This document shows positions 1 through 31,535 of a stretch of DNA of 31,535 bases, in pieces (positions within the stretch are counted from its first letter, which is position 1; each line of letters opens with the position of its first letter). This DNA is from a virus: the IMG/VR virus record IMGVR_UViG_3300009152_000019, one strand, 5' to 3'. Under the pieces are notes generated by a model. It was not told where the DNA came from. It searched no databases and saw only the letters and a program-made list of their open reading frames with translations. Both the position numbers and the translations under genes were made by a program.

Positions 1-123
1 CTTGGTATCAGAAAATTTCTTTACAATTTCTGTAAACTTATCGAAGTCTAAATCATACACTTCATCTTCATCTGCTCCTAAGTCAACAAATATTTTTGCC
101 CACTTTTCAAACTGGTCAAGTTC
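1..123. repeat. Terminal direct repeat, copy 1 (identical to 31413..31535). Either a circular-assembly overlap or a terminal redundancy.
   Basis: I compared the strings directly. The first 123 nt (cttggtatcagaaaatttc...caaactggtcaagttc) recur exactly as the last 123 nt of the window. Confidence 0.95.
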
Positions 124-6455: not shown

Positions 6456-7490
6456 ATGTCGAATAATAGAATACGATTGAAACCAGATGAACTAGAAATA
6501 ATTAAACAATATAGAGGAATAAAGAATGCTACTGATTCAGCTGATGTAAATGACGAAGACGTTAAACACGGTTGGTTAAAAACAGATAAAGCAAGTTTGT
6601 TCTTTAAAAATCCAAACTTTAAAACAGAAGTTGAACAAGGATTTTCTATAATACAACAGGCAACGATTGAAGCTACAAAAAAGCATTCACCAAAGTACAA
6701 GAAGATAGAACGCGTTGAGGATAAAGATTCTAATCTATTAGTAATTGATATTGCCGATTTGCATATCGGTAAATTATCTAGTGCATTTGAAACTGGAGAA
6801 ACTTATAATTGCCAAATCGCAGTACAAAGAGCAAAGGAAGGATTGATTGGTATTATTCAAAAGAGCAAAGGTTATACAATAGATAAAATTCTTTTTGTTG
6901 CAGGAAACGATATTCTTCACACAGATAATACTAAAAGTTCTACAACTGCAGGAACACCACAAGATACCGATGGAATGTGGTATGATAATTTTTTAACTGC
7001 AAAACAGTTGTACATTGATCTATTAGAAATGTTAGTACATATTGCAGATGTTGAAGTAGTGTACAATCCATCTAATCACGATTACACACACGGATTCTTT
7101 TTGCTACAACTTATTGAAGCACATTTTCATAAAGCTGAAAACATCGTTTTTAACGTTGATTTAAAACATCGCAAAGCATTTCAGTACTATGATAACTTCA
7201 TAGGCACTACACACGGAGACGGTGCCAAATTAGAAGCATTACCATTGCTATATGCTACAGAACATTCTATACTTTGGGCTAACACTAAACACAGATACGT
7301 TTACACACATCACATTCATCACAAAAGTGGTAAAGACTTTCCGGGTATAACGATTGAAAGTTTACGTTCACCTTCAGGTACAGATTCTTGGCATCACAGA
7401 AACGGTTTTTGTGGTGGTGTAAAAGCAATAGAAGGATATATACATTCAAAATATAATGGGCAAGTTGCTAGGTTAACACATATTTTTTAA
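6456..7490 (+). CDS. Calcineurin-like metallophosphoesterase.
   Basis: The ordered motifs are DIADLHIGK (DxH), VAGNDILH (GD/GND), NPSNHDY (GNH[D/E]-like), TTHGDG (H) and YTHHIHH (GHxH-like). Confidence 0.7.
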   Translation: MSNNRIRLKPDELEIIKQYRGIKNATDSADVNDEDVKHGWLKTDKASLFFKNPNFKTEVEQGFSIIQQATIEATKKHSPKYKKIERVEDKDSNLLVIDIADLHIGKLSSAFETGETYNCQIAVQRAKEGLIGIIQKSKGYTIDKILFVAGNDILHTDNTKSSTTAGTPQDTDGMWYDNFLTAKQLYIDLLEMLVHIADVEVVYNPSNHDYTHGFFLLQLIEAHFHKAENIVFNVDLKHRKAFQYYDNFIGTTHGDGAKLEALPLLYATEHSILWANTKHRYVYTHHIHHKSGKDFPGITIESLRSPSGTDSWHHRNGFCGGVKAIEGYIHSKYNGQVARLTHIF

Positions 7491-18106: not shown

Positions 18107-18353
18107 ATATAAAGGCAAGACTGTTATTGTGTATAATAGTGTATTAGGCAATCAAAATGTAATAATTGATAAAATACTACCAAAGCATTATGATTGGTAT
18201 TCAAGAAACGGATTAGGTCATATCTTTGAAGCTGAAGCTACAGTTGAAGAGATTGTAGATGAAGCATATACTCTTGCTATGGCTCAATTATCTGGAGTGA
18301 AAGCACCTGAGCAAGTTCCAGTAGTGAAAAAAACACGAACTAAGAAGAAATGA
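18081..18353 (+). CDS. Hypothetical protein. The start may instead be the ATG at 18090.
   Basis: A 90-aa ORF with a basic C-terminus. Confidence 0.6.
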   Translation: MRKMQIKDEYKGKTVIVYNSVLGNQNVIIDKILPKHYDWYSRNGLGHIFEAEATVEEIVDEAYTLAMAQLSGVKAPEQVPVVKKTRTKKK

Positions 18354-18505
18354 ATCTTGACTATATGATAGCATCCGTTAAAGAATACATATTTCAACAG
18401 AAAGGAATGAGTATAGATATTGACTCAAACTTCATTAAATCAGATGTAAGACAAATACAACTACTTTATCAAGCATTCAACTACATTCAAAGTGTCAAAG
18501 GATAG
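18350..18505 (+). CDS. Small hypothetical protein, 51 aa (MNLDYMIASVKEYIFQQKGMSIDIDSNFIKSDVRQIQLLYQAFNYIQSVKG).
   Basis: I translated this by hand. It has an ATGA overlap with the previous gene. Confidence 0.45.
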   Translation: MNLDYMIASVKEYIFQQKGMSIDIDSNFIKSDVRQIQLLYQAFNYIQSVKG

Positions 18506-18509
18506 AAAG

Positions 18510-18536
18510 TTACACAAAATGTATTACACAAAATGT
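18510..18536. repeat. Tandem direct repeat TTACACAAAATGT x2 (14-bp period) upstream of terS.
   Basis: Exact 13-mers lie at 18510..18522 and 18524..18536. The second is part of the imperfect palindrome tacacaaaatgtgtt. TAGAAAA x2 follows. Confidence 0.85.
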
Positions 18537-18566
18537 GTTATTTAGAAAACTAGAAAAATACGAATA

Positions 18567-18983
18567 ATGGCAAAACATAAGTATATAGAAACACCTGAGA
18601 AACTATACGAACTATTCCAAGAGTATAAGGCAAGCATAAAGCCAAGAGAGATACAGAAAGCAACTGCAGCAGGAGTGAAGTCTGAATTTCATACACCACC
18701 GTTTACAATGGAAGGATTTGAGAACTTTTGCTTTATAAATTATTCAGATATACATCATTACTTTGATAATACAGATGAGAGATATAACGATTATAGGACT
18801 ATCTGTTCACATATAAAGAAAGTCATTCGTCAAGACCAAATCGAAGGAGGTATGGTCGGGCAATTCAATCCAAGTATTACACAACGATTAAATTCACTTA
18901 CTGAAAAAACAGATGTTACATCTCAAGGAGAAAAGATAAACGAAATCAAAGTAACAATTGTAAGTGGAAATCAAAGCAACTAA
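18567..18983 (+). CDS. terS: Terminase small subunit.
   Basis: PPFTMEGFENFCFINYSDIHHYF...YNDYRTICSHIKKVIRQDQIEGGMVGQFNPSI resembles Terminase_2-type small subunits. The gene overlaps the terL start. Confidence 0.65.
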   Translation: MAKHKYIETPEKLYELFQEYKASIKPREIQKATAAGVKSEFHTPPFTMEGFENFCFINYSDIHHYFDNTDERYNDYRTICSHIKKVIRQDQIEGGMVGQFNPSITQRLNSLTEKTDVTSQGEKINEIKVTIVSGNQSN

Positions 18984-20115
18984 AATCTTTGAGCAGAATT
19001 ATACTGCCTTATCTGATTCAGCTACACGATTCATAATCAATCAAGGTGGCTCACGTTCAAGCAAGACCTATTCACTTTGTCAGGTTATAATTGTCTACTG
19101 CCTTCAGAATCCTAACAAGGTAGTATCAATAGTTAGAAAGACGTTTCCTGCTTTAAGAGCAACTGTGATGCGTGATTTCTTTGAGATAATGAAAGACTTA
19201 GAAATCTATGAGGTGACGAGCCATAATAAGAGTGAGAATATATATCGTTTTGGTAACGGATCTATAGTTGAGTTTTTTTCAGTAGATGACGAGCAAAAGA
19301 TAAGAGGTCGAAAAAGAGATATCGGTTGGTGTAATGAAGCCAATGAGTTATGGTTTGAAGATTTTCAGCAGTTGAATATGCGAACTGAATCGACAATGAT
19401 ATTTGACTATAATCCTTCTGATAGTTCAAGTTGGTTATACGAACTTCCTGAAGACGAAAGCATCCTAATAAAATCTACATACAAAGACAATCCATTCCTA
19501 CCTGATTCAATCAAGCGACAGATAGAAGACTTGAAACGAACAGATGAAGCATTGTATCAAATCTATGCATTAGGTGAGAGGACAACATCTAAAACGAACA
19601 TCTATAGTAACTGGCAATTTGTTAAAGAAAGACCTGCTAGGTTTGAATCATTCTGTTATGGGTTAGACTTTGGATATAACCATCCAACTGCATTAATAAA
19701 GGTATACTGGCATGAGAAAGATATATTCATTGAATCAGTAATCTATGAAAGCTATCTAACTACCACTATGTTGATAGAGAGAATGAATGAGATTGGAGTT
19801 GATAAGAATGCTGACATCTTAGGCGACCATTCAAGGCCTGAAATAATAGCAGAGATACAAATCGCAGGGTACAATATAAACAACGCAACGAAGGGCGTTA
19901 AAAAAGGAATTGACAACGTTAAAACATTCGGAGTGATATGCCTTGATAATCCAAATCTTAAAAGAGAATATGAGAACTACAAGTGGAAGAAGGTAGGCGA
20001 TTCAATTACGGATGAGCCTGTGAAACTATTTGACGATGCAATGGATGCGATTCAGTATGCAGGTCGATTCATAAAAGACAATTACTATACTGACGATAGT
20101 TACTTCAGCTTCTAA
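18964..20115 (+). CDS. terL: Terminase large subunit (PBSX / Terminase_3-like).
   Basis: It has the Walker A-like QGGSRSSKTYS, the Walker B-like region GWCNEANE, and the C-terminal nuclease motif FDDAMDAIQYA. The GTG start at 18964 is the only start in the open frame. Confidence 0.85.
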   Translation: MEIKATKIFEQNYTALSDSATRFIINQGGSRSSKTYSLCQVIIVYCLQNPNKVVSIVRKTFPALRATVMRDFFEIMKDLEIYEVTSHNKSENIYRFGNGSIVEFFSVDDEQKIRGRKRDIGWCNEANELWFEDFQQLNMRTESTMIFDYNPSDSSSWLYELPEDESILIKSTYKDNPFLPDSIKRQIEDLKRTDEALYQIYALGERTTSKTNIYSNWQFVKERPARFESFCYGLDFGYNHPTALIKVYWHEKDIFIESVIYESYLTTTMLIERMNEIGVDKNADILGDHSRPEIIAEIQIAGYNINNATKGVKKGIDNVKTFGVICLDNPNLKREYENYKWKKVGDSITDEPVKLFDDAMDAIQYAGRFIKDNYYTDDSYFSF

Positions 20116-20146
20116 AACACGAATAAAAAATTAACCATTATAAGAT
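20116..20146 (+). promoter_or_regulatory. Late-gene motif copy 3: AAC-N16-CCATTATAAGAT, then the ATG at 20147.
   Basis: Architecture is the same as in the other three copies. Confidence 0.5.
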
Positions 20147-21568
20147 ATGGCAACGACAAAATTAGCATCACCCCAAGTATTCACACCTGCGTATAACCCA
20201 TGCAAGTTTATAGTAGATTCAACAAACAAAAATGAACTAGGATTCAGATACATATTTGATGTTTACGATGCGGTTACGGATGTTCAAATAGCGCAGTACA
20301 GAGTGTTTCCGCAGTACTTAACTGGTTATGGTGAGATAGATATATCAAAGCTACTTCAAACTAAAGTAAGTTACGATAGTAATTTGTATAACACTACGGC
20401 TTACGATGCTGCTAATTCATATTATAAGTATGATGTAATGGTAGGTGAGGAGTTTATAACAACAGTAAGTTATACATCTTCATTGACAAATAACGCAGGT
20501 AACGTAAGAATAACTGCAACACATTCGTATGTAGTAGGTGACCAAGTTAGAATAATACAATCAGATGGTGGAGCAGCTAATCCAAACTTGGAAGGATTGT
20601 TTACCGTATTGTCAGTTGTTGGTACTACTTCGTTTACAGTCAACTCTCTTTGGTCGCAAGTAACAAATGCTTTGATAGATGGAACGGTAAGCTACTCAGA
20701 CAATAGAAAAACTGTTATACAAAATATACTAGGTGTTACAAATAGCTATGTGTTTAATGGTGCAATGTCTTTTCAAAATTGGATTACTTTTGAAAGTGCA
20801 AATTATATCTTAAACAATAGTTTAGATTTATTACTTACTGATATGCCGACAAATGGCTTTTATTCTACATATAATCAAGACTTGATAATTAATTTTGGTA
20901 ATGCCAAAGTAGACACAGGATTTGTGTACTTTCAAAATAATGCAGGTAGCATTTTTAAGAAAGCAATTAACACAAGCTCGTATATTTCAGGTGTACCAGT
21001 AGGTCCTAGTAATTATGGTAGTTTGACCGTAGTAAGTGGTGCTGGTCCTCTTATCAATACAACTACTGAGTATTATGATTTTTGGTATACAAATTCTGCA
21101 GGTGTTCAGCATTCACAAAAGTACCGTGTGAACATTGACAAGAGATGTGTAATAGAAGATTATTCTTTATTGTTCTTAGATAGGATGGGAAGCTATGGAT
21201 CATTTGCTTTTCAGTTGAGAGCGTATGAGAAAGGAACGGTTCAAAAACAAGGATTCAATAGAGATGTTCAAGGAAGTATTACAAGTCAAGAATGGGGTTA
21301 CACTTCAGAATCATTCGGGCAAAGCATCTATTCATCTAATGTTACTAAAACATTAGACTTGAATACTAACTGGATGACTGAAGAAATGTCTATCTACTTT
21401 GAGCAGTTGATAACTTCGCCTTTGGTTTATTTAAAAATGCCTGACGAAACTTATGCAGCAGTTATAATAAATGAAAATTCATTTGAAGTGAATAAGCAAA
21501 GAAACAAGAAACTATTTAAGAAGTCAATAACAGTTACATTCGCAAATCAAAACACTATCAATGTATAA
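20147..21568 (+). CDS. Tail/baseplate structural protein, possibly distal-tail-protein-like.
   Basis: The 473-aa beta-rich ORF is the first gene of the tail block and is coupled to the large tail protein. The function is inferred from position. Confidence 0.4.
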   Translation: MATTKLASPQVFTPAYNPCKFIVDSTNKNELGFRYIFDVYDAVTDVQIAQYRVFPQYLTGYGEIDISKLLQTKVSYDSNLYNTTAYDAANSYYKYDVMVGEEFITTVSYTSSLTNNAGNVRITATHSYVVGDQVRIIQSDGGAANPNLEGLFTVLSVVGTTSFTVNSLWSQVTNALIDGTVSYSDNRKTVIQNILGVTNSYVFNGAMSFQNWITFESANYILNNSLDLLLTDMPTNGFYSTYNQDLIINFGNAKVDTGFVYFQNNAGSIFKKAINTSSYISGVPVGPSNYGSLTVVSGAGPLINTTTEYYDFWYTNSAGVQHSQKYRVNIDKRCVIEDYSLLFLDRMGSYGSFAFQLRAYEKGTVQKQGFNRDVQGSITSQEWGYTSESFGQSIYSSNVTKTLDLNTNWMTEEMSIYFEQLITSPLVYLKMPDETYAAVIINENSFEVNKQRNKKLFKKSITVTFANQNTINV

Positions 21569-24500
21569 TGTAAGAATACAACTAGCAACAGGTTATTTAG
21601 ATGTCAAAGAAGATACTGCTTTTCCTTTAAACTTTGGTATAGCAGACATTCGAGATGTAAGCAAAAGAGCAGGTGCATTCTCGAAGACTATCACACTTGT
21701 TGGAACGAAGAATAACCACGACTTGCTTAACCATTACTACGATGTCAATATAGTAGCGGGTACATTTAATATCAATGCCTTGACTAAATGTACAGTTGTT
21801 CAAAATGGTATTCCTATTCTATCAGATGCGTTTGTGCAGTTGTTGTCAGTTAATAAGATTCAAAAGGACTCTAGCTTTGAACAAGATATTGAATACTCGG
21901 TATTGATTAAAGACCAAGCGTCAACATTCTTTACTGATATTGATACTAAAGAGCTAAAAGACATTGACTATTCAGATTTGAATCATGCTATATCTTCAGC
22001 TAATATTTATTCGTCGTTTACGCATGATGTAACAGATGGCTATAAATATGGCTTGACTTGGAATACTGGTAACTTATACAGTCTTGCTGAATTTCGACCT
22101 GCTATTTATGCAAAGGTTTACTTTGATAGAATCTTTCAAAATGCAGGATATAATTATGAATGGTCTTCGTTAGTTGCGTGTGGATTTGATAAACTTATTA
22201 TTCCATATAGTGGCGATTTAGTTACTATGCCTTATTCGAACTATGCAGTTGAAGAAACTCACGCTGCGGATATTGTAAGTATAGTTCAAACACCGTACAC
22301 TATAGGATTTTCAGAGCAGTTAACTTCATTTACTGAGATACTAGACGGTCAAAACTTATTCAATCCTACTACTGGCGTTTACACTTGTCCATTTCCTGCA
22401 TCAGGGGCAGAGGTAATTAACATTGGTATAGATATTATAGGGGATATTCAGCTTGTCAATGCAACTGGTGTTAATTTAAGTTTGTATAATACCGACTATT
22501 CTTATTCTACGCTTCCTAGACAAAGATATGTTTTAGAAATACAAGTGTTTAGAAGTAATTTTCCAACCATACCAATATTTGTTTTTTCTACTCCTTATGA
22601 TGTAATTACTAATGGTATAAATTCTGCACCATATGCGCCTGGTACAACAACGATAATCAGTTTAAACAATCATTTCACGTTACCAATAAGCAATGTCAAT
22701 GCAGGAACACAATTAACATTTAAAATAGGTGTAGGTGTAGATAACTCAAATACAACATTACACTGGGTAACTCCTGCAGTTGTTCCTGCTATAATGACAC
22801 CTCAGTTAAACTACACATCTTTAAAATTGACTGCTAATATTTCATCTAATACTTTGGCAGTAGGCACGGTGTTAAATATGAATCAATTTGTACCTGACAA
22901 GATAAAGCAAAAAGATTTTGTTAAGTCAATATTTCAAATGTTCAATCTATATGTTGAAATAGATACGGACAATGCAAATACACTAATATTAAAAACTAGA
23001 GATGACTTCTATGATAGTGGCATAGAAAAAGACTGGACTTACAAACTAGCAAAAGACAAAGAACAAGTATTAAACTTCTTACCAGAACTAGCATCAAAAA
23101 AACTTATACTTACATACAAGCAAGACAAGGATACACCTAACGTAACTTACTACGATACTACAAGAGAAGTATACGGTCAAGTAGAATATATCTTTGATAA
23201 CGAGTATGTAAAAAAAATTGATACAAAAGAATTAATCTTTTCCCCTTCACCAATTGGTCAAACAACATTTGGTGCTTATGTGCCAATAGTGGCAGGTAGT
23301 TCTCCTAAGACTAACATTCGAATTTTGTATGATGGTGGCATGAAGTCTTGTAGCCAATATACAATTATAGATTCAGGCTCTGCAGGAATGTATGGTATCT
23401 TAGAATATCCTTTGATGCATCACTATGACGATGCGTTGAATCCTACATTAGACATCAACTTTGCGTTGTGTGATTATATGTATTACGACTTCTACACACC
23501 GACAGATAATAATCTTTATAATTCATATTGGAGGCGTACAATAAACCAAATTAATACTGGCAAGATGTTGATTGCCTACTTCAATTTGAAAGAAGATGAT
23601 ATTCAGAGTTTAAAGCTAAATGACAAGATTAGAATAGATAATTCTTGGTGGTCAATAAACAAGGTAATAGATTACGATGCTAACAACAAACAACTAACAA
23701 AAGTTGAACTATTATCTACAGATAGTGAGATAGATTTTGCTCCATTTAAAACAAAGATTACCAAACAACCTCAAGGTGCTTTTACTCATGTTTACACAGG
23801 AGTGAATGAAACAATTGCAAATAATACAAATGCAGTAGGGGTGGGAGCAGATGTAATTATTAAAGGTAGGAATAACATTGTAATGCCTGGTGTTAAAGGC
23901 ATCATAGAAGGTGACGATGGTGTAGTTACCGAAGATGGTATTTATAGATTTGTGGATGGAGTTAATACGCTTTTATCTGGAGCTGTATATTCTATAACTT
24001 CAGGCACTCAAATTGAAACAACCTCAAATATTGATGTTGTTGCTTCAGGGTTAGAATTTACTCCTCCTGCAGGAACGTATAAGGTAGATTTCAATGGGCA
24101 CTATCTTTCAATACCAGGAAACGTTGTTCAAATTGCTACGATAGATTTGCAAGCATTAACTTTATATATCAACAACCTTACAGCAACAGGCACTCACGGA
24201 TTATCATTCGGTAGTGGAGAAACATTAACAGCTGGGATTTATGATGTTGCTGGCGCAATGTCAATAACTGGGGTTCTAACCTTAAATGGTGGTGTAAATG
24301 ATATATTTGTATTTAGGTCGACTGGAGCTCTAAACACAACACCATCTACAACAGTTCAACTTACTGGGGGAGTGAAATCTGCTAATGTATTTTTCTTAGC
24401 AAATGGTGCTTTAGGGTTGGAAGCAAATAATGTTCTAAATGGTAATTTCATTGCGGTTGCTGCGGCAGCGGCATTAGGAGCAAATGCTACATTTAATGGT

Positions 24501-24941
24501 AGATTACTGTCAACTGCGGGGTCAATTGCATTTGGCGCTGGAACAATAAGTAAGCCAACTGATGTAAGCCTTATTCCAATGGGGATTTTAGATAGCTTTT
24601 TGGCGTTTACAAATTCAGGAGGGATAACAAATACAGCTTTAGCAAAAATTACTGGAAATCTAGGAACAGGAAGTGCTACCGTTGTTATATTTTTAGGTAG
24701 TGTATTTAATGGGGTTGCTTTTGACCCTACACAGTCACTTGGTGATACTAATGTTTTTTCACTTTATAAAGGCAATACTCAAATACCGTTTACAGAAAGG
24801 TCTAGATATTATAATACCTATGTTGAAGATGTTACACTGCAAGGAACAACAACTGTTAATGGCACAGAATCAATAAGTGTTAGATGGCGAACAGACATAG
24901 GCAAAGTAGTATTAGCAAACAGAATATTTACAATTGTATAG
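21561..24941 (+). CDS. Large tail-tip/fibre protein with a C-terminal DUF3494 (ice-binding-protein-like) beta-helix domain.
   Basis: It is 1126 aa. The C-terminal GETLTAGIYDVAGAMSITGVLTLNGGVNDIFVFRSTGALNTTPSTTVQLTGGVKSANVFFLANGALGLEANNVLNGNFIAVAAAAALGANATFNGRLLSTAGSIAFGAGTISKP matches the conserved core of bacterial and fungal DUF3494 ice-binding proteins. Confidence 0.7.
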   Translation: MYNVRIQLATGYLDVKEDTAFPLNFGIADIRDVSKRAGAFSKTITLVGTKNNHDLLNHYYDVNIVAGTFNINALTKCTVVQNGIPILSDAFVQLLSVNKIQKDSSFEQDIEYSVLIKDQASTFFTDIDTKELKDIDYSDLNHAISSANIYSSFTHDVTDGYKYGLTWNTGNLYSLAEFRPAIYAKVYFDRIFQNAGYNYEWSSLVACGFDKLIIPYSGDLVTMPYSNYAVEETHAADIVSIVQTPYTIGFSEQLTSFTEILDGQNLFNPTTGVYTCPFPASGAEVINIGIDIIGDIQLVNATGVNLSLYNTDYSYSTLPRQRYVLEIQVFRSNFPTIPIFVFSTPYDVITNGINSAPYAPGTTTIISLNNHFTLPISNVNAGTQLTFKIGVGVDNSNTTLHWVTPAVVPAIMTPQLNYTSLKLTANISSNTLAVGTVLNMNQFVPDKIKQKDFVKSIFQMFNLYVEIDTDNANTLILKTRDDFYDSGIEKDWTYKLAKDKEQVLNFLPELASKKLILTYKQDKDTPNVTYYDTTREVYGQVEYIFDNEYVKKIDTKELIFSPSPIGQTTFGAYVPIVAGSSPKTNIRILYDGGMKSCSQYTIIDSGSAGMYGILEYPLMHHYDDALNPTLDINFALCDYMYYDFYTPTDNNLYNSYWRRTINQINTGKMLIAYFNLKEDDIQSLKLNDKIRIDNSWWSINKVIDYDANNKQLTKVELLSTDSEIDFAPFKTKITKQPQGAFTHVYTGVNETIANNTNAVGVGADVIIKGRNNIVMPGVKGIIEGDDGVVTEDGIYRFVDGVNTLLSGAVYSITSGTQIETTSNIDVVASGLEFTPPAGTYKVDFNGHYLSIPGNVVQIATIDLQALTLYINNLTATGTHGLSFGSGETLTAGIYDVAGAMSITGVLTLNGGVNDIFVFRSTGALNTTPSTTVQLTGGVKSANVFFLANGALGLEANNVLNGNFIAVAAAAALGANATFNGRLLSTAGSIAFGAGTISKPTDVSLIPMGILDSFLAFTNSGGITNTALAKITGNLGTGSATVVIFLGSVFNGVAFDPTQSLGDTNVFSLYKGNTQIPFTERSRYYNTYVEDVTLQGTTTVNGTESISVRWRTDIGKVVLANRIFTIV

Positions 24942-24961
24942 GTGTCATTCTAATCATTTAA

Positions 24962-24992
24962 AACACAACTTCAATAATCACCATTATATAAT
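24962..24992 (+). promoter_or_regulatory. Late-gene motif copy 4: AAC-N16-CCATTATATAAT, then the ATG at 24993.
   Basis: Architecture is the same as in the other three copies. Confidence 0.5.
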
Positions 24993-27113
24993 ATGGCAGC
25001 ATCACCGATTGAGATTCCTATTAAATTAAATGGCTTAGCAGCTATTAAGGCAGAACTTCGTGAGCTGAAAGGCGACCTTGCAAATGCAACAGACCCAAAA
25101 CAGATGCAGGAACTTGCTATGAGAGCAGGTGAGCTTAAAGACCAACTTGCAGATGCTAATGAACAAGTAGCAGTATTTGCATCAGGTAGTAAGTTTGAGC
25201 AGGTTTCAAATTCATTCGGTTCAATGAAAGATTCTTTGATGTCTTTGGACTTTGAAGAAGCTGCTAGTAAAGCTAAGATGTTTCAGCAAACATTAGGAAG
25301 TATATCACCTGCTACGATTGGAAATAGTATTAAAGGTTTAGTTTCAGTTGTTGGTAGTTTATCTAAAGCCTTCATTCAGTTTGGTATTTCATTACTAGCA
25401 AATCCTATCTTTTTATTAGTTGCTGCGATTGTAGCCATTGTCGCAGTCATTGCTTTGGTGATGAATAAACTCGGAATCTTAAAGCCAATTCTTAATGCAG
25501 TAGGTAAAGTATTCGGTTGGATAGGTGATGCTATTGATATGGTTGTTCAAGCATTCAAAGATTTGTGCGATTGGTTAGGCTTATCTAATAACGCAGCAGA
25601 AGATGCAGCAGATGCACAAGCAGCAGCAGCCGAAAAAACTGCAGCAGCATACGAAGAAAAGAGTGCAGCAGTAGTAGCAGGTTTCGATAGAGAGATTGAA
25701 ATGGCTAAACTTGATGGTCAGAATACTGTTTATATGGAAAAGCAAAAACAGTACTGGCTTTTAAAAACTGCAGCTGCAAGACTAGAGGCAATTAAACAAA
25801 AAATGATTGCTGCGAGATTGAGTGGTGATTTAGATGAGGAGGAGATTTTAGCTTTAAGAAAATCATATAACGAGCAAAGAGAAGTAGTCAAAGATTCTAT
25901 GCATCAGATTGAGGTGATTGATAAGACCGAAGCTAATCGTAAAAAGGAAGATGCTAAAAAACAATCAGATGAAAGTTCTAAAAATGCTAAATCTAATGCA
26001 GATAAACAACGAGAAATTAATGCTAAAAAAATTGAAGCAGAAAAGAAATATCAAGCAGACAGATTAGCAGCTGCTCGAATGTATCAAGACTTGGATATTC
26101 AGTTAATGGATGAAGGAGTTCAAAAAGAATTGAAAGTATCTCAGATTGCTTACAATAGATTGATTGAAGATACACAAGCTAAGGTTGCTAAGACGAAACA
26201 AGAACAAGAAGAAAAGTTAAAGCTAATTGAAATGTATGGTCTTTTAGCGGGGGATGCAAGAGATAAGATAAATCAAAAAGAAGCTGAAAAAGAAAAAGAA
26301 AAGAAGGCAGCAGATGCAGCTAAAGAATTAGAGCAAATAGCTTTGTTAAAATCAATGAAAGATGCTGCAAGTCAAACTGCTAAAGACAAAGAAATAGCAG
26401 ATGTAAAAGCAAAGAGTGAAGCAGATTTAATAGCTTTAGGAAGTAGTGCAGATGCAAAGGTATTTTTAGCTGAGCAAACTGCTGAAAGAATTGCTGAGAT
26501 TGATGCTAAATATGCTGAGATTGAAAGAGCAAATCATTTTAAACTATTAAGTGAGAAAGCAGATATTGCGTCTAAGTATGCACAAAGTGTAAACTCTTTA
26601 GCTGAAGGAATGTTTGCAGTATCTAATAGCTATGGTAAGCAAGATGAGAAGTCAAAAGAAGAAAGAGCAAAAAAACAGTTCTATATTCAAAAAGCAATGA
26701 ATCTAGGAATGGCTACAATAGATGGGTATAAAGCAATTACTTCTTTCTTGTCAACAAATCCGTTAACTGTTTTAGGTTTACCAAATCCTGGTGCAATAGC
26801 AGGACTTGTTGCTACTTCAGCAATGGCTGCAGGTAATATCTTAAAGATTGCTTCTGCGAGATATGGTGGTAAAGGAACACCAACAACAACTGCATCACCA
26901 ACAGCAGCAGGAGGTGGTGGAGGTGATACTTCTACACAAGCAGCCACTCCTAGCGTTACTTTAAACGGTGCTAATAACAACGCAAATACATTTGGAGCAA
27001 ACGGACAACAGAATCAAGGTGGTCAAATGATAGTCAAGGCAGTAGTAGTAGAATCTGATATTACTTCTGTGCAAAACAAGATGAATAAAATACAACAATC
27101 AGCAACGTTATGA
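24993..27113 (+). CDS. Tape-measure-like protein.
   Basis: It is 706 aa. It has an N-terminal coiled coil, the hydrophobic block ANPIFLLVAAIVAIVAVIALVMN, a long A/K/E-rich coiled coil, a second hydrophobic segment, and a Gly/Asn/Gln-rich C-terminus. Confidence 0.55.
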   Translation: MAASPIEIPIKLNGLAAIKAELRELKGDLANATDPKQMQELAMRAGELKDQLADANEQVAVFASGSKFEQVSNSFGSMKDSLMSLDFEEAASKAKMFQQTLGSISPATIGNSIKGLVSVVGSLSKAFIQFGISLLANPIFLLVAAIVAIVAVIALVMNKLGILKPILNAVGKVFGWIGDAIDMVVQAFKDLCDWLGLSNNAAEDAADAQAAAAEKTAAAYEEKSAAVVAGFDREIEMAKLDGQNTVYMEKQKQYWLLKTAAARLEAIKQKMIAARLSGDLDEEEILALRKSYNEQREVVKDSMHQIEVIDKTEANRKKEDAKKQSDESSKNAKSNADKQREINAKKIEAEKKYQADRLAAARMYQDLDIQLMDEGVQKELKVSQIAYNRLIEDTQAKVAKTKQEQEEKLKLIEMYGLLAGDARDKINQKEAEKEKEKKAADAAKELEQIALLKSMKDAASQTAKDKEIADVKAKSEADLIALGSSADAKVFLAEQTAERIAEIDAKYAEIERANHFKLLSEKADIASKYAQSVNSLAEGMFAVSNSYGKQDEKSKEERAKKQFYIQKAMNLGMATIDGYKAITSFLSTNPLTVLGLPNPGAIAGLVATSAMAAGNILKIASARYGGKGTPTTTASPTAAGGGGGDTSTQAATPSVTLNGANNNANTFGANGQQNQGGQMIVKAVVVESDITSVQNKMNKIQQSATL

Positions 27114-27742
27114 CAAGCTACAAATCACTATTAAATAAAATAGAAGCATTCTGCAATGCTCACCTACAAATAAAAAAGTACGGAGGAGAATTCAGAGAGC
27201 AGATGCCTAACTTTGCTACAATAGATGAGAAGTATCCAGTTGTATTTGTTACACCAACAAGTGATACCGAGAATCTAAACACAAATCAATTCACAGTAGA
27301 CATATATTGCGTTGATTTAATACAAGCTGATAGAGCAAATCTTAATAATATTATATCTGATTGTCAGTTGATACTAAAAGATATGTATGTATATTACACT
27401 AATGATAACGACATTGAATTAGATGTTGTTGGAAGTGCAACTATGTCGCCTTTAAACAATCTTGATTTAGATTATGTTGCAGGTTGGGTTATGAGTATTA
27501 CATTTGAAGTAGCAAGTTATGGAAGTTGTGCTATTCCAATGAATCCAATTTCTCCTAATCCTCCTATTGTTTGTGAAGAGGCAACTGTTGAAAATTCAGA
27601 TGGTACATATTCAGAAACGGTTGTTAGTGGTGGTTTATTGATTTTGCCAGATACAACCTACAATTTTATAGTGAACGGAAATACAACAACCGTAACCGTT
27701 CCAAGTTTAACAGATGAAACATTCAATATAGTATGGCAATAA
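27110..27742 (+). CDS. Tail structural protein, function unknown.
   Basis: A 210-aa ORF with ATGA coupling to the tape-measure-like gene. Confidence 0.6.
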   Translation: MTSYKSLLNKIEAFCNAHLQIKKYGGEFREQMPNFATIDEKYPVVFVTPTSDTENLNTNQFTVDIYCVDLIQADRANLNNIISDCQLILKDMYVYYTNDNDIELDVVGSATMSPLNNLDLDYVAGWVMSITFEVASYGSCAIPMNPISPNPPIVCEEATVENSDGTYSETVVSGGLLILPDTTYNFIVNGNTTTVTVPSLTDETFNIVWQ

Positions 27743-28929
27743 ATATAAATATACCAATAGAAGATGCGGTTACAGATGGCAGTTTAAATCCTGTAACTAG
27801 TAATGCAGTTTTTGACGCTTTGGCAGGGCTTGCAGTTTCAGATTTACAAAGTGTAACAGACGTAGGAAATACAACTACAAACGATATTGCATTTATTGAT
27901 ACCGCCGGTATCTTATTAGAGAACACTTCAAGACTTAGAGAGGGTACAATAGATGCACAAACTGGCGGTTATAAAGGTATTGCTCAAATTTGCGCTGTAG
28001 GTTACGAGTTGAAGTGGGAAGCTGGCAGTCAATATGTAATGGATGGTAACGGTACGTTAGTTCGTGAAGTAAACCATAAATTCAATATTGTTCCTGACTT
28101 AAACAACGACAGTACACAAGGCTTTTACGTTGGTTCTAGATGGATTCTAGACGATGGAGATATTTATATTTGTACAGATAGCACGGCAACAAATGCAGTT
28201 TGGGAAAAATTAAATAGTTTAGACGAATTAGTACCTTACAATGGCGCAACTGCAGATGTAAACTTAGGAAATCAAGATTTGTACGCAAACAAAGTATGGC
28301 TTTACGACGCGCCAAACGATGCGTATGGTAGCATTCATTTAACTGATAATGACTTTCACATTGAAGATTCCGAAGGTCATAAAATGTTAGTTATTGAAGA
28401 TGGATTTATGCAAATACATTTGACCGACGCTATACAATCTAATCTTTTTACAAGTGGATTAACTCAAAGTAGAGACCATTATTTACCCGATGCAAGCGGA
28501 ACTATTGCTTTAACCTCAAATATTCCTGCAGTTGATTCTGTTCCTACGGATGCAAGCGCAAACGCTGTAAGTTCAAACGGAGTGTTCGATGCTTTGGCTT
28601 TAAAAGCACCATTAACGCCACGTGTTCAAAGTGTAACAAGTTCGGCAACGGTAACGCCAACAAGCACAAATGACTTTGTAAAAATTACAGCTCAAGCGGT
28701 TGGATTAACTTTAGCAAATCCAACTGGAACTTGGGATGAGGGTAAAGATTTAATCATAAGAATTAAGGATAACGGAACTGCTCGAAGTATTGCATACGGA
28801 ACGAAATACAGAGTGATAGGAGTTACTTTACCAACAACAACGGTTGTAAGTAAAACAACTTATTTAGGTCTTATTTATAACGCAACGGATGATACTTTTG
28901 ATGTTGTCGGAGTAACAACACAAGCATAA
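27733..28929 (+). CDS. Tail fibre protein.
   Basis: The fibre-type motif SxNxVxSNxVFDAL occurs twice (NPVTSNAVFDALAG and ANAVSSNGVFDALAL). The sequence is beta-rich. Confidence 0.6.
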   Translation: MAININIPIEDAVTDGSLNPVTSNAVFDALAGLAVSDLQSVTDVGNTTTNDIAFIDTAGILLENTSRLREGTIDAQTGGYKGIAQICAVGYELKWEAGSQYVMDGNGTLVREVNHKFNIVPDLNNDSTQGFYVGSRWILDDGDIYICTDSTATNAVWEKLNSLDELVPYNGATADVNLGNQDLYANKVWLYDAPNDAYGSIHLTDNDFHIEDSEGHKMLVIEDGFMQIHLTDAIQSNLFTSGLTQSRDHYLPDASGTIALTSNIPAVDSVPTDASANAVSSNGVFDALALKAPLTPRVQSVTSSATVTPTSTNDFVKITAQAVGLTLANPTGTWDEGKDLIIRIKDNGTARSIAYGTKYRVIGVTLPTTTVVSKTTYLGLIYNATDDTFDVVGVTTQA

Positions 28930-29726
28930 TGAGTTATTACAAAATAATTTCTTTAATGCCAAAAGCACCCGCCTACGATGCCGATGCACAAGCATTTATA
29001 ACAGCTACGGGAATAACTGATGTAACGCAAAAGAACGCTGTTAACCAACTTGTATTAGATTTAAAAGGTTATTCTATTTGGACTAAATTCAATGCGTTAT
29101 ATCCATTTGTAGGTGGAACTGCAACGACTCACAAATTTAACTTGAAAAATCCATTAGACACTGATGGCGCGTTTAGACTTTCTTTTATCGGTGGATGGAC
29201 TCACAGCGCAAATGGAGCTTTGCCTAATGGTACAAATGCGTACGCAAATTCCTTCATTACACCTTCAACTTCTTTGAATTTAAATTCAACACACATAAGT
29301 TATTATTCAAGAACTACTGGAGCAGTAGGAAATTGCTTTGGAGCTGCAAATATAGGTCTTACAAATAGGACTTTGTGGCAGTTTGGAGGCTCAAATAATT
29401 ATATTGCAATTTATACTTTACCATCATTTTATTTTTCTTACGGAAGTGCAAATTCACTTTCAATGCTGATAGCAAATAGAACAGCAAGTAATTTAAGTAA
29501 TGCTTGGCAAGGTGGAATAAAAAAAGCAACTAGCACAAATACACCGACAGCTTTAACAACTGTGCCTATTTATTTTGGAGGTAATAATGCAAATGGTACA
29601 ACTGACACATACAGTAATGCTCAGTGTGCATTCGCTTCAATTGGTGACGGATTAAGCGACACAGAAGCGTCTAATTTCTACACCGCCGTACAAGCATTTC
29701 AAACAAGTTTATCTAGACAAATATGA
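28929..29726 (+). CDS. Putative receptor-binding / tail fibre-associated protein.
   Basis: A 265-aa Gly/Asn/Thr-rich ORF coupled to the fibre gene (TAATG). Confidence 0.45.
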   Translation: MSYYKIISLMPKAPAYDADAQAFITATGITDVTQKNAVNQLVLDLKGYSIWTKFNALYPFVGGTATTHKFNLKNPLDTDGAFRLSFIGGWTHSANGALPNGTNAYANSFITPSTSLNLNSTHISYYSRTTGAVGNCFGAANIGLTNRTLWQFGGSNNYIAIYTLPSFYFSYGSANSLSMLIANRTASNLSNAWQGGIKKATSTNTPTALTTVPIYFGGNNANGTTDTYSNAQCAFASIGDGLSDTEASNFYTAVQAFQTSLSRQI

Positions 29727-29926
29727 TAGTAGCACAATTAATACCCAAACAAGCCGAACAATTGAAAGGATTTGAATTTAGACAAGATTCTTTTTTTAAT
29801 CCTATTCAAGATATTAACGATAATTGGATTATTTCGCTTGAAGAACAAAGGCAATGCGATATTTATTGGGTAAAAGATTTACCTTTAATCGAATATTTAC
29901 CAAAAGAAACAACTAATTTATTTTAA
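29723..29926 (+). CDS. Hypothetical protein.
   Basis: A 67-aa ORF with ATGA coupling. Confidence 0.55.
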   Translation: MIVAQLIPKQAEQLKGFEFRQDSFFNPIQDINDNWIISLEEQRQCDIYWVKDLPLIEYLPKETTNLF

Positions 29927-29939
29927 CTATATTTACAGT

Positions 29940-31096: not shown

Positions 31097-31535
31097 CTTG
31101 CATATCTTTAGCAGTATTACCTAACTTTGCACCAATATAAGCCATAAAAGGAATAGCAATATTTGCTTTTTGTTCTTTAAACATCTTTGATTTTAACGCA
31201 AGATGTGAATCACCGTAGTGTTCAGCTTTAGTTAAGTCAGTTCTCTTAAAGATTATAGCCATTACTTTAGAAATATAGTTATCAGGACTTGTAGATACTG
31301 CTTTTTCAATCATTTTTAGATCACGCACATTTAGTTTAAATTCATCTTCGTAAGATTGGTAAGTGTAACCATCAACTTCGATTGATTTTAAAAACTTTGC
31401 ATCAGGCTTTTTCTTGGTATCAGAAAATTTCTTTACAATTTCTGTAAACTTATCGAAGTCTAAATCATACACTTCATCTTCATCTGCTCCTAAGTCAACA
31501 AATATTTTTGCCCACTTTTCAAACTGGTCAAGTTC
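31071..31535 (-). CDS. 3' part of the junction-spanning acidic protein. The ORF is open to the window edge, and the true ATG is at position 216 of the circular map.
   Basis: The listed ORF 31071..31472 begins at an internal Met. The frame stays open through 31535 and continues through the duplicated 123 bp to the ATG at 216. Confidence 0.7.
   Translation of the reverse strand, partial: ELDQFEKWAKIFVDLGADEDEVYDLDFDKFTEIVKKFSDTKKKPDAKFLKSIEVDGYTYQSYEDEFKLNVRDLKMIEKAVSTSPDNYISKVMAIIFKRTDLTKAEHYGDSHLALKSKMFKEQKANIAIPFMAYIGAKLGNTAKDMQVEAAEIVE
31413..31535. repeat. Terminal direct repeat, copy 2 (identical to 1..123).
   Basis: Direct string comparison. Confidence 0.95.

What the first reader, a model, noticed from the sequence alone, without database searches (positions are those of the whole stretch)
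23979..24941. Ice-binding-protein-like (DUF3494) beta-helix at the tip of a phage tail protein, with a second partial copy
The last ~320 aa of the 1126-aa tail protein contain a region (23979..24557) that aligns by eye with the conserved core of DUF3494 ice-binding proteins, such as the IBPs of Flavobacterium, Colwellia, Typhula and Leucosporidium.

The pattern is TLTxGxY...ITGxLTLxGGxNDxxxFxxxxxL...VxLxGGxxxxNVFxxxxGAxxLGxxxxxxGNxxAxxxxxxGAxxxxNGRLLSxxGxxxxxxxTIxKP. It is preceded by a helix-like segment, VQIATIDLQALTLYINNLTATG.

Right after the KP end, the N-terminal DUF3494 motif restarts (MGILDSFLAFTNSGGITNTALAKITGNLGTGSATV, from 24580). The sequence then diverges into a different C-terminal module. 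This looks like a partial tandem duplication or a permuted arrangement.

A virion-displayed ice-binding fold could be a receptor-binding or adhesion module borrowed from a cold-adapted host clade. It could also bind ice in sea-ice brine habitats. I know of no established role for this fold in phage tails.
Basis: partly seen in the sequence, partly recalled or inferred. Interest (0 to 1): 0.8.

Follow-up and report, generated by a model that had tools for sequence, protein, structure and literature searches.

The report
Ice-binding-type fold on phage tail tip
A lake phage carries, at the end of its tail protein, a swappable tip in which an "ice-binding protein" fold is rearranged and nested inside a second small domain; the tip most likely grips the host cell, and whether it also grips ice is untested.

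Summary
ORF 21561..24941 (1126 aa) matches Pfam PF11999 (DUF3494/Ice_binding) at 72 bits (cut-off 28.7; E 7e-20). It also matches solved ice-binding proteins, best the two-domain IBPv (5UYT, E 1.6e-30). An AlphaFold model (pLDDT 91) retrieves only DUF3494 structures at the top.

The "second partial copy" is real but is not a duplicate. It is the only copy of the DUF3494 initial coil, placed after the last coil, so the domain is circularly permuted. The permuted beta-helix (aa 853-1064) is inserted into a loop of a ~115-aa jelly-roll domain with TNF/C1q-like fold matches. The two halves of that domain (aa 811-852 and 1065-1126) are contiguous in other proteins, where it occurs in 3, 6 or 9 tandem copies.

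The unit 23945..24944 is a cassette. Syntenic sister phages (~82% nt identity on both sides) carry other tips. Unrelated phages carry the same tip at 80-82% nt identity. Flavobacteriaceae chromosomes encode relatives.

The most likely role is a receptor-binding or adhesion head. Ice binding is not excluded: the small-residue row of the IBPv ice-binding site is conserved, and the sample comes from seasonally ice-covered lakes. I found no literature on DUF3494 in phages.

The parts
21561..24941 (+). ORF of 1126 aa: large virion (tail spike or central-fibre-like) protein carrying the cassette
   Evidence: ORF listing. It lies between TerL plus a 473-aa ORF and a tape-measure-like ORF. More than 2000 metagenomic homologues share the N-terminal ~800 aa.
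21561..23944 (+). Conserved body (aa 1-~795) shared with the phage family; it contains a C1q/TNF-like jelly roll of its own
   Evidence: BLASTP homology to 119 relatives ends at aa 790-809 in 99 of them (77 at 790-799, 22 at 800-809). Nucleotide homology to the syntenic genomes L072 and L073 ends at 23944 and 23948. AF2 model pLDDT 74; Foldseek top hits are the phi812 central spike knob/petal (9eul, E 1e-5), C1q/TNF domains and the Sf6 needle knob.
23945..24944 (+). Exchangeable tip cassette (C-terminal ~330 aa plus the stop codon)
   Evidence: This stretch has no homology to L072 or L073, which are 82-84% identical on its left side; on its right side L072 is ~82% identical and L073 95% over the 177 nt held. 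Window 23991..24938 is 82.4% nt identical to a gene in a 117-kb phage contig (L002) and 80.0% to one in another phage contig (L005). These contigs share nothing else with the window, apart from one 494-nt 67% match in L005.
23991..24116 (+). Jelly-roll domain, N-terminal half (aa 811-852; 4 strands, two of them long)
   Evidence: AF2 secondary structure. An HMM of this segment hits 10-20 aa upstream of every C-half hit in proteins with uninterrupted copies. The in-silico 'insert-deleted' sequence aligns collinearly with those copies. It has no IBP hit in PDB even at E<=10.
24117..24752 (+). Inserted, circularly permuted DUF3494 domain (aa 853-1064)
   Evidence: PF11999 hit. PDB hits. AF2 plus Foldseek, with DUF3494 IBPs at probability 1.00. 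The core and restart HMMs are absent from the uninterrupted jelly-roll proteins.
24123..24173 (+). Long alpha-helix of the DUF3494 fold (aa 855-871)
   Evidence: AF2/DSSP helix at fragment residues 75-91. It aligns with the helix region of 5uyt, chain residues 60-85.
24204..24551 (+). Beta-helix coils (aa 882-997), ending in the ...TISKP final coil
   Evidence: PF11999 profile positions 86-207. AF2 strands at pLDDT ~98. This is the most conserved part among the 29 phage-type sequences, with mean entropy 0.71 bits.
24573..24710 (+). The 'restart' (aa 1005-1050): the sole DUF3494 initial coil, placed after the final coil
   Evidence: A profile of this segment alone hits only the N-terminal initial coils of IBPs in PDB, E 1.5e-15 for 5uyt. 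Moving it in front of the helix in silico extends the PF11999 alignment from profile 78-207 (74.5 bits) to 5-207 (79.3 bits). In canonical DUF3494 proteins on other contigs the same HMM hits before the core.
24753..24938 (+). Jelly-roll domain, C-terminal half (aa 1065-1126; 5 strands)
   Evidence: A profile search of 1.84e9 representatives gave 527 hits, including proteins with 3, 6 or 9 tandem copies. Foldseek matches of ~70-80 columns to TNF-like lectins (2wq4, 9ib6), the Sf6 and HS1 needle knobs, the cyanophage A-1(L) fibre CBD, and phage C1q/BclA-like proteins.
24993..27113 (+). Downstream neighbour: 706-aa tape-measure-like or internal virion protein
   Evidence: PHROG 9483 'tail length tape measure protein', E 1.5e-4. 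It is conserved in the syntenic relatives.
18964..20115 (+). Upstream context: terminase large subunit
   Evidence: PF04466 at E 1.2e-29 and PHROG 2.

Best explanation
Shown by computation:
- The window is a complete ~31.4-kb tailed-phage genome.
- Its 1126-aa protein has a conserved ~795-aa body and a C-terminal tip cassette (aa ~796-1126) that has been exchanged by recombination.
- The cassette is a two-domain nested unit. A ~115-aa jelly-roll has fold-level resemblance to the trimeric TNF/C1q-like knobs and lectins found at fibre tips. One loop of it is split by a ~210-aa DUF3494 beta-helix.
- The DUF3494 part is circularly permuted. It starts with the long alpha-helix, runs through the coils, and ends with the coil that is normally first.
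- The most economical origin is excision of a 'helix of domain A to first coil of domain B' window from a tandem two-domain IBP such as IBPv, followed by insertion into the jelly-roll.

Inferred:
- The jelly-roll trimerises the tip, and three beta-helices are displayed on it.
- The cassette is the adsorption (receptor-binding or adhesion) head of the tail protein, recognising a surface structure of a Bacteroidota, probably Flavobacteriia, host.
- Swapping it changes what the phage sticks to.
- The beta-helix is the ligand-binding part that 'buds' from a split scaffold domain, as in bacterial adhesins.

The confidence of 0.6 is for the functional reading. The structural description (a permuted DUF3494 nested in a split jelly-roll, carried on a mobile cassette) I hold at about 0.9.
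For: Homology and fold: PF11999 at 72 bits; 5uyt at E 1.6e-30, with the alignment running through the domain A to B junction; AF2 pLDDT 90.9; Foldseek places the DUF3494 IBPs first, then TNF-like jelly rolls.

Permutation: the restart profile hits only initial coils of IBPs. The N-strand profile hits no IBP. The permuted construct covers PF11999 positions 5-207. In canonical DUF3494 genes on other contigs the restart HMM lies before the core.

Nesting: the N-half and C-half HMMs hit adjacent positions at a ~122-aa period, in 3, 6 or 9 copies, in proteins that lack the core. The alignment is collinear once the insert is removed.

Cassette behaviour:
- The body is conserved in more than 2000 proteins. 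Of the best 120, only this one has PF11999, and the breakpoint falls at aa 790-809 in most of them.
- Sister genomes are ~82-84% nt identical on the left of 23945..24944; on the right L072 is ~82% identical and L073 95% over the 177 nt held.
- The same cassette occurs at 80-82% nt and 73-86% aa identity in short fibre-like genes of unrelated phages and temperate elements.
- 16 IMG/VR viral ORFs (on 13 contigs) show the full N-core-restart-C layout, always C-terminal.

Host clue:
- Cellular relatives were found only in Flavobacteriaceae (GE-10, Winogradskyella, Polaribacter glomeratus). They carry a signal peptide and a Pfam 'PTL_trimer' domain.
- Bacteroidota-type integrases sit near the module in temperate elements.
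- GC is 33%, and the TerL hits with the highest coverage (97-98% of the query) are Bacteroidales phages.

Adhesion precedent:
- IBP-like folds serve non-ice adhesion in CAA/pAdhesive_15 proteins and in the ComZ pilus tip (bioRxiv 10.1101/2023.03.06.531300).
- The cellular homologue P0153 passes the PF20597 cut-off.
- Ligand-binding domains characteristically bud from split domains (PMC12077191).
Against: - No binding experiment exists.
- The trimeric state was not modelled, because no multimer tool was available.
- The jelly-roll assignment rests on partial Foldseek matches (E 0.03-0.1, ~75 columns) and has no sequence-level support in PDB or Pfam.
- The beta-helix coils are the most conserved, not the most variable, part among the phage copies. 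That is unusual for a surface in an arms race with a host receptor and fits an invariant ligand such as ice or a conserved glycan.
- The phage has a second hypervariable locus (27826..29930) that may encode another fibre, so this tip need not be the primary receptor binder.
- Host assignment is indirect.
Confidence: 0.6

Rival explanations
1. The tip is a working ice-binding module. Virions attach to ice surfaces or brine-vein walls, or inhibit local ice recrystallisation. This would keep the phage next to ice-associated Flavobacteria, or protect the particle through freeze-thaw in lakes that freeze every winter.
For: - The positions aligned with the first IBS row of IBPv (Ala/Gly; mutation to Leu cut thermal hysteresis, PMC5673226) are small here: G1021, S988, A969, A950 and A923. 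They are small in nearly all 79 family members (A923 79/79, A969 77/79, A950 74/79).
- The second row is N/G/A/A/T.
- The beta-helix is the best-conserved part of the cassette.
- The source is a co-assembly of 24 metagenomes from seasonally ice-covered Quebec lakes.
- Cellular relatives occur in Polaribacter glomeratus, which I recall as a cold-water species (own knowledge, not checked here).
- A second variable fibre locus could supply host recognition.
Against: - In sister phages the same position holds unrelated tips, so the cassette behaves like a host-range determinant rather than an add-on.
- The small residues sit at turns and may be structural for the fold whatever the ligand.
- The FfIBP-type T-A/G-X-T/N motif (quoted) is seen at most partially: A-L-N and G-I-T fit its A/G-X-T/N part, but neither is preceded by Thr; the other three coils have A-L-G, A-A-A and S-I-A.
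- The same fold is used for non-ice adhesion elsewhere.
- It is unknown whether the face is exposed in a trimer.
Confidence: 0.15
2. The tip is an accessory adhesin for a non-receptor substrate, such as exopolysaccharide, biofilm matrix, or algal or particle surfaces. It would concentrate virions where hosts live, like Ig-like domains that bind mucus, while another fibre makes the committed host contact.
For: - There is a second variable fibre-like locus at 27826..29930.
- IBP-like CAA/pAdhesive_15 domains act in general underwater surface adhesion.
- Cellular homologues are secreted surface proteins that occur in a tandem array of at least 13 related genes, at least 10 of them carrying PF26696 plus PF11999.
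- The binding domain is well conserved.
Against: The cassette occupies the distal end of the largest tail protein and replaces the tip of sister phages. In other phages it makes up almost the whole of a short fibre gene, which is the usual layout of a primary receptor-binding protein. There is no direct data either way.
Confidence: 0.15
3. The 'restart' is a decayed remnant of a second tandem DUF3494 domain, or a recent partial duplication, with no structural role.
For: The best PDB relative is a two-domain IBP, and the alignment runs from the end of its domain A into the start of its domain B.
Against: - No initial coil precedes the helix, so the segment is not a second copy.
- It is conserved in all 79 family members, phage and cellular, down to 27% identity. 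Several columns are invariant or near-invariant.
- It is modelled at high confidence (10-residue block mean pLDDT 86-97 across aa 1005-1050) as a regular coil.
Confidence: 0.03
4. The beta-helix is an enzymatic tailspike-type depolymerase domain that degrades host capsule.
For: Many phage tailspikes are beta-helices. BFVD Foldseek lists some pectate-lyase-type phage proteins.
Against: Those matches have TM 0.1-0.2 and RMSD above 17 Å, so they are noise. All confident sequence and fold matches are to the small DUF3494 fold, which to my knowledge has no reported catalytic activity. There is no Pfam or PHROG enzyme hit.
Confidence: 0.03

Closest known systems
IBPv, the two-domain DUF3494 antifreeze protein of Flavobacteriaceae isolate 3519-10 (PDB 5UYT; PMC5673226)
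   Same: It is the closest solved relative by sequence (E 1.6e-30) and by fold (Foldseek E 2e-8). It shares the alpha-helix packed on a triangular beta-helix. The row of small residues of its ice-binding site is matched by G/S/A/A/A. The junction 'final coil then next initial coil' is collinear with the phage sequence.
   Different: IBPv has two complete domains in canonical order and is a secreted soluble protein with measured thermal hysteresis. The phage unit has one beta-helix, starts at the helix, ends with the initial coil, is nested in another domain, and sits on a virion protein. No activity data exist for it.
Single-domain DUF3494 IBPs (FfIBP 4NU2, ColAFP 3WP9, TisAFP 3VN3, LeIBP 3UYU, AnpIBP 7BWX)
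   Same: PF11999 membership and the same fold (Foldseek probability 1.00, TM normalised to target 0.4-0.5).
   Different: They have the canonical topology: initial coil, then helix, then a reverse stack. Some have capping regions. None is reported nested in a jelly-roll or carried on a phage.
CAA / pAdhesive_15 (PF20597) domains and the Thermus ComZ pilus-tip protein
   Same: An IBP-like beta-helix plus helix fold used on the tip of a surface appendage for adhesion unrelated to ice. The cellular homologue P0153 passes the PF20597 cut-off.
   Different: The window protein itself does not hit PF20597. It is much closer in sequence to genuine IBPs.
Trimeric TNF/C1q-like jelly-roll heads (BC2L-C N-terminal lectin 2WQ4, Photorhabdus PLTL 9IB6, phage Sf6/HS1 tail-needle knobs 3RWN/4K6B, cyanophage A-1(L) short-fibre CBD 8KE9, BclA/C1q-like phage fibre tips)
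   Same: Fold-level match of the C-terminal ~75 residues. A distal position on fibres. Indirect signs of three-fold organisation: tandem triplets of the domain elsewhere, and 'PTL_trimer' in cellular homologues.
   Different: There is no sequence similarity. The domain is smaller (~115 aa, 9 strands) and here is interrupted by a 210-aa insert. The trimer was not tested.
Split-domain plus ligand-binding-domain units of RTX adhesins (e.g. AhLap, MpIBP; PMC12077191)
   Same: A binding domain whose N and C termini lie together buds out of a beta-sandwich that is completed afterwards. That architecture is used there as a predictor of ligand-binding domains.
   Different: The split domains there are Ig-like and monomeric, within giant bacterial adhesins. 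Here the split domain is a jelly-roll at a phage tail tip.
Horizontal exchange of tail-fibre tips between unrelated phages (general phenomenon; e.g. Alteromonas phages, Gonzalez-Serrano 2023, seen only as a reference-list entry, not read here)
   Same: A conserved anchor with an exchangeable C-terminal head. The same head occurs at ~80% nt identity in otherwise unrelated genomes.
   Different: The head type (permuted DUF3494 in a jelly-roll) has not been described, as far as my searches show.

Membership tests
DUF3494 / Ice_binding (Pfam PF11999) | Sequence match above the Pfam gathering threshold | tested here: met
   72.1 bits against 28.7, E 6.8e-20, aa 874-996. All 24 PDB sequence hits are ice-binding/antifreeze proteins or DUF3494 domain-containing proteins.
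DUF3494 / Ice_binding (Pfam PF11999) | Beta-helix with a long alpha-helix alongside | tested here: met
   AF2 model at pLDDT 90.9: helix aa 855-871 followed by short-strand coils. Foldseek probability 1.00 to 5uyt, 4nu2, 3wp9, 3vn3 and others. This is a predicted, not a solved, structure.
DUF3494 / Ice_binding (Pfam PF11999) | [quoted passage not shown] | tested here: not met
   The only initial-coil homologue lies after the final coil. The segment before the helix is not an initial coil. This is a circular permutation.
DUF3494 / Ice_binding (Pfam PF11999) | Flat face with an aligned row of small residues (IBS row 1 of IBPv) | tested here: met
   Mapping through the HMMER alignment to 5uyt (paper numbering equals chain index plus 21) gives G1021, S988, A969, A950 and A923. 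These are conserved across the 79 sequences. This is a sequence-level test only; the residues may be structural.
DUF3494 / Ice_binding (Pfam PF11999) | Ice-binding activity (thermal hysteresis, recrystallisation inhibition, ice shaping) | not testable with these tools
   It needs recombinant protein and ice assays.
Tandem multi-domain IBPs (IBPv type), i.e. the 'second copy' reading | A second helix and beta-helix following the second initial coil | tested here: not met
   After aa 1050 only ~76 residues remain. They belong to the jelly-roll.
TNF/C1q-like trimeric jelly-roll heads | Jelly-roll fold similarity | tested here: inconclusive
   Foldseek probability 0.9-1.0 but E 0.03-0.1, with only ~70-80 aligned columns, to 2wq4, 9ib6, 3rwn, 8ke9 and BFVD C1q/BclA-like proteins. 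I had no access to coordinates to check strand order.
TNF/C1q-like trimeric jelly-roll heads | Sequence membership (Pfam C1q or TNF families, or PDB relatives) | tested here: not met
   No Pfam hit for the insert-deleted domain or for natural uninterrupted copies. No PDB sequence hit for the domain profile.
TNF/C1q-like trimeric jelly-roll heads | Homotrimer formation | not testable with these tools
   Only indirect evidence: tandem copies come in 3, 6 or 9, and cellular homologues carry Pfam PF26696 'PTL_trimer'.
Phage receptor-binding protein with an exchangeable tip | Encoded in the virion/tail module | tested here: met
   The gene order is TerS-like, TerL, 473 aa, this ORF, then a tape-measure-like ORF. 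The body resembles a central spike knob.
Phage receptor-binding protein with an exchangeable tip | Conserved N-terminal body with a variable C-terminus among close relatives | tested here: met
   The nucleotide-level breakpoints are at 23944/23948 and 24945/24952.
Phage receptor-binding protein with an exchangeable tip | The same tip found in unrelated phage backbones | tested here: met
   L002 (117 kb), L005, L011 and L012, plus 16 IMG/VR ORFs with the full layout.
Phage receptor-binding protein with an exchangeable tip | Demonstrated binding to a host receptor | not testable with these tools
   The host is unknown. No isolate exists, and no GenBank phage carries a homologue.

The most novel reading that the evidence does not exclude
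A tailed phage displays three functional ice-binding beta-helices on a trimeric knob and uses them to adhere to ice or ice-vein surfaces, or to blunt ice recrystallisation around the virion, in lakes that freeze each winter. This would be an 'adherence to ice' strategy that co-localises phage and ice-associated Flavobacteria. The cassette would spread among phages and Flavobacteriaceae as a cold-habitat trait rather than as a host-range switch.
Probability: 0.15. Interest if true: 0.85.

Novelty: new variant of a known kind. Interest (0 to 1): 0.6.

Why it matters
- It extends the DUF3494 'ice-binding' family to tailed-phage virion proteins. I found no report of this in the literature, and none of 50,697 deposited phage genomes has a homologue.
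- It documents a natural circular permutation of the fold, nested inside a probable trimerisation domain. That bears on how the fold evolves (a tandem domain turning into a permuted domain) and on how it can be displayed multivalently.
- It defines a compact cassette of about 1 kb that moves between unrelated freshwater phages and Flavobacteriaceae surface proteins. This gives a handle for host linking and for asking what these 'IBPs' bind.
- If the tip binds ice, it would be the first virus-borne ice adhesin. If it binds a cell-surface glycan, it would add evidence that many annotated 'ice-binding proteins' are general adhesins.
- Either result is directly testable with one recombinant fragment.

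Tried and rejected
- Deposited relatives: megablast of 18000-28000, and tblastn of the whole ORF and of the cassette against 50,697 GenBank phage records, found no match, even at E 0.01.
- PHROGs gave nothing for the ORF. phmmer of the 800-aa body against PDB gave nothing.
- 'Second partial copy' or tandem duplication: rejected.
- A diverged initial coil upstream of the helix. This was suggested by the Pfam alignment of P0153 to profile positions 4-207. It was rejected because the N-strand profile hits no IBP and instead matches the N-half of uninterrupted jelly-roll domains.
- Sequence-level identification of the jelly-roll: no Pfam or PDB hit.
- Depolymerase reading: only noise-level fold matches.
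- The genome-contig scan with the broad alignment A1 failed because no conserved stretch was found. It was repeated with A6.
- Cassette GC is 37.2% against 32.6% genome-wide (15 of 306 1-kb windows are as high). This is too weak, and confounded by Gly/Ala richness, to argue foreign origin.
- Literature searches for DUF3494 or ice-binding together with phage, tail fiber or receptor-binding protein, and for PF26696/PTL_trimer, found nothing relevant.
- I could not inspect model coordinates. The direction in which the beta-helix projects, and the exposure of the IBS-like face, remain unknown.

Full report
**Context**

The window is a low-GC (32.6%) genome with all large ORFs on one strand. Its first 123 nt are repeated exactly at its end, so it is a complete, circularly assembled or terminally redundant genome of about 31.4 kb.

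It encodes these phage proteins:
- an XkdF-type protease;
- a virion structural (capsid-like) protein;
- a portal protein;
- an exonuclease;
- a DNA methylase;
- a DnaB-like helicase;
- a terminase large subunit.

The ORF in question (21561..24941, 1126 aa) follows TerL and a 473-aa ORF. It precedes a 706-aa protein with a weak tape-measure match. The same contig segment occurs in JGI metagenome 3300010885. This is a co-assembly of 24 metagenomes from seasonally ice-covered lakes in Quebec (bioRxiv 10.1101/324970).

**Checking the observation**

- Pfam PF11999 (Ice_binding/DUF3494) matches aa 874-996 at 72.1 bits, against a gathering cut-off of 28.7 (E 6.8e-20).
- phmmer against all PDB sequences returns 24 chains, all ice-binding or antifreeze proteins or DUF3494 domain-containing proteins. 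The best is the two-domain IBPv of a Flavobacteriaceae isolate (5uyt, E 1.6e-30).
- An AlphaFold2 model of aa 781-1126, built on 79 homologues, has mean pLDDT 90.9.
- Foldseek against the PDB ranks DUF3494 structures first: 5uyt at 2e-8, then FfIBP, LeIBP, ColAFP, TisAFP and AnpIBP, all at probability 1.00.

The homology claim therefore stands.

**The 'restart'**

A profile made only from the segment after ...TISKP (aa 1003-1052 in 28 family members) was searched against the PDB. It hits 16 sequences, all IBPs, and always at their N-terminal initial coil. The hits include 5uyt residues 5-44 (i-E 8.5e-11) and the start of 5uyt domain B (217-263, 5e-6). So the segment is a true homologue of the first coil of DUF3494.

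The stretch before the helix (aa 811-852) is not. Its profile finds no IBP even at E<=10.

When the restart is moved in front of the helix in silico, the PF11999 alignment grows from profile positions 78-207 (74.5 bits) to 5-207 (79.3 bits).

In canonical DUF3494 genes on other fetched contigs, the same restart HMM hits before the core. In this family it hits after the core.

The domain is therefore circularly permuted and not partly duplicated. In the canonical fold the final coil packs next to the initial coil (PMC11645318), so the permutation is sterically simple. The best PDB alignment runs from the end of IBPv domain A into the start of domain B. Double-domain IBPs are typical of Flavobacteriales (PMC9957290). 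A tandem two-domain ancestor trimmed at both ends is thus the simplest origin. This origin is an inference.

**What flanks the beta-helix**

A profile of the last 86 aa was searched against 1.84 billion representative proteins and gave 527 hits. Several hits contain the element 3, 6 or 9 times:
- P0285, P0330, P0343, P0352 and P0364 (387-490 aa);
- P0289 and P0363;
- P0238 (2103 aa);
- P0237 (3737 aa).

An HMM built separately from the N-terminal strands (aa 811-852) hits these proteins 10-20 residues upstream of every C-half hit, with a period of about 122 aa. HMMs of the beta-helix core and of the restart do not hit them.

When aa 854-1061 are deleted in silico, the window sequence aligns collinearly with these natural ~117-aa units at 20-31% identity. 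The deletion point falls in their variable loop.

So aa 811-852 and 1065-1126 are the two halves of one domain, and the DUF3494 unit is inserted into it. The layout is a split scaffold with a budding domain.

The scaffold has no Pfam or PDB sequence relative. Its C-half does match TNF/C1q-like jelly rolls by fold:
- the BC2L-C N-terminal lectin;
- the Photorhabdus lectin PLTL;
- the Sf6 and HS1 tail-needle knobs;
- the receptor-binding domain of the cyanophage A-1(L) short fibre;
- many phage 'C1q' or 'BclA' fibre tips.

Three lines suggest a trimeric head, which I could not model. These are the fold matches, the occurrence in triplets, and the Pfam 'PTL_trimer' domain at the N-terminus of cellular homologues.

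**Cassette behaviour**

- The first ~795 aa are conserved in more than 2000 metagenomic proteins of 835-1589 aa. Among the best 120, only the window protein carries PF11999. BLASTP homology ends at aa 790-809 in most of them.
- Two syntenic relatives (L072, a 31.8-kb contig, and L073) are 82-84% nt identical to the window up to 23944/23948. Homology resumes at 24945/24952 (L072 ~82%; L073 95% over the 177 nt held), and the stretch between is unrelated.
- Conversely, window 23991..24938 is 82.4% nt identical to the 3' part of a 436-aa gene in a 117-kb phage contig. That contig encodes PhoH, RecA, a lysozyme and a collagen-like neighbour.
- The same stretch is 80.0% identical to a 396-aa gene in another phage contig, which encodes GroEL/ES and an M15 peptidase. 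Neither contig shares flanking similarity with the window.
- Other copies lie in temperate elements with Bacteroidota-type integrases.
- A scan of IMG/VR found 56 viral contigs with relatives. Sixteen ORFs there, on 13 contigs, show the complete N-half, core, restart, C-half layout, always at the C-terminus of proteins of 355-1000 aa.
- No GenBank phage record has a homologue.
- In GTDB genomes the full unit was found only in Flavobacteriaceae: isolate GE-10, Winogradskyella sp. and Polaribacter glomeratus, at 32-42% identity.
- In GE-10 it forms a tandem array of at least 13 related genes; at least 10 carry PF26696 plus PF11999. The member aligned here (P0160) starts with a signal-peptide-like N-terminus.

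**Function**

The replacement pattern is that of a receptor-binding head. Other tips occupy the same position in sister phages, and the same tip sits on different anchors in unrelated phages. Two lines of literature fit this reading:
- IBP-like folds act as non-ice adhesive domains in CAA/pAdhesive_15 proteins and in the ComZ pilus tip. The cellular homologue P0153 passes the PF20597 threshold.
- In RTX adhesins, domains that bud from split domains are the ligand-binding ones.

I therefore take host or surface adhesion as the most likely role (confidence about 0.6), with a Bacteroidota host inferred.

Ice binding is not excluded:
- The five positions that align with the small-residue row of the IBPv ice-binding site are G1021, S988, A969, A950 and A923. 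In IBPv, substitution of these positions by Leu cut activity.
- These positions are conserved across the family, and the neighbouring row is N/G/A/A/T.
- The coils are the most conserved part of the cassette.
- The habitat freezes every winter.
- A second variable locus (27826..29930) could carry host specificity.

Against the ice reading, these residues may be structural, the FfIBP-type motif is only partly present, and the cassette replaces a tip rather than adding to one.

**Novelty**

DUF3494 proteins and modular phage tips are both well known. What is new is their combination. The topology is also new: a permuted DUF3494 nested in a jelly-roll. I found no paper on either. I rate it a new variant of a known kind, of moderate to high interest, with a low-probability but striking ice-adhesion reading that one recombinant fragment could test.

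Noticed in passing
window 1..123 and 31413..31535: An exact 123-nt direct repeat at the two ends. The window is a complete circularly assembled or terminally redundant phage genome of about 31.4 kb.
   Followed up: yes
window 27826..29930 (398-aa ORF 27733..28929 and 265-aa ORF 28929..29726): A second hypervariable locus. It has no nucleotide homology to the syntenic relative L072, which encodes a 414-aa protein and a 199-aa protein with PF07603 (Lcl_C) at that position. It is probably a second fibre or receptor-binding locus.
   Followed up: partly
L007 and L069 (Flavobacteriaceae bacterium GE-10, OZ248375.1, about 41-65 kb): A tandem array of at least 13 related genes of 430-548 aa. At least 10 carry Pfam PF26696 'PTL_trimer' plus PF11999. 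The four checked by HMM (on L069) have the same permuted and nested layout.
   Followed up: partly
P0285, P0330, P0343, P0352, P0364 (387-490 aa); P0289, P0363; P0238 (2103 aa); P0237 (3737 aa): The jelly-roll domain that is split in the phage tip occurs uninterrupted in tandem sets of 3, 6 or 9 copies with a period of about 122 aa. This suggests single-chain pseudo-trimers. The domain has no Pfam family. P0237 also carries DUF11 repeats and a C25 peptidase domain.
   Followed up: partly
window 21561..23944 (ORF aa ~230-430): The conserved body of the same protein gives Foldseek matches to C1q/TNF-like jelly rolls, with large insertions, and to the phi812 central spike knob/petal. The protein may therefore hold two jelly-roll knobs.
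   Followed up: partly
L020/L021 (4171-7005 and 7010-8074), L023 (4764-5879 and 5884-6981), L015-L017 (7108-7560): Some IMG/VR contigs carry two adjacent genes with the full cassette. Others have a 151-aa ORF holding only the restart plus the C-half, next to the full-length gene.
   Followed up: no
L036-L068 (IMG/VR contigs): About thirty further viral contigs encode DUF3494 cores without the jelly-roll. Three of them (L057, L058, L065) show the initial coil in the canonical position. DUF3494 domains are therefore not rare on contigs classed as viral, though some may be misclassified cellular DNA.
   Followed up: no
window 6768..7261 and L005 11098..11591: The exonuclease gene shares a 494-nt stretch at 67% identity with the otherwise unrelated phage contig that also carries the cassette.
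   Followed up: no
P0004 (1589 aa, L073) and P0005 (1450 aa): Sister proteins with the same ~800-aa body carry much longer alternative C-terminal regions (about 650-790 aa) that have no Pfam match.
   Followed up: no
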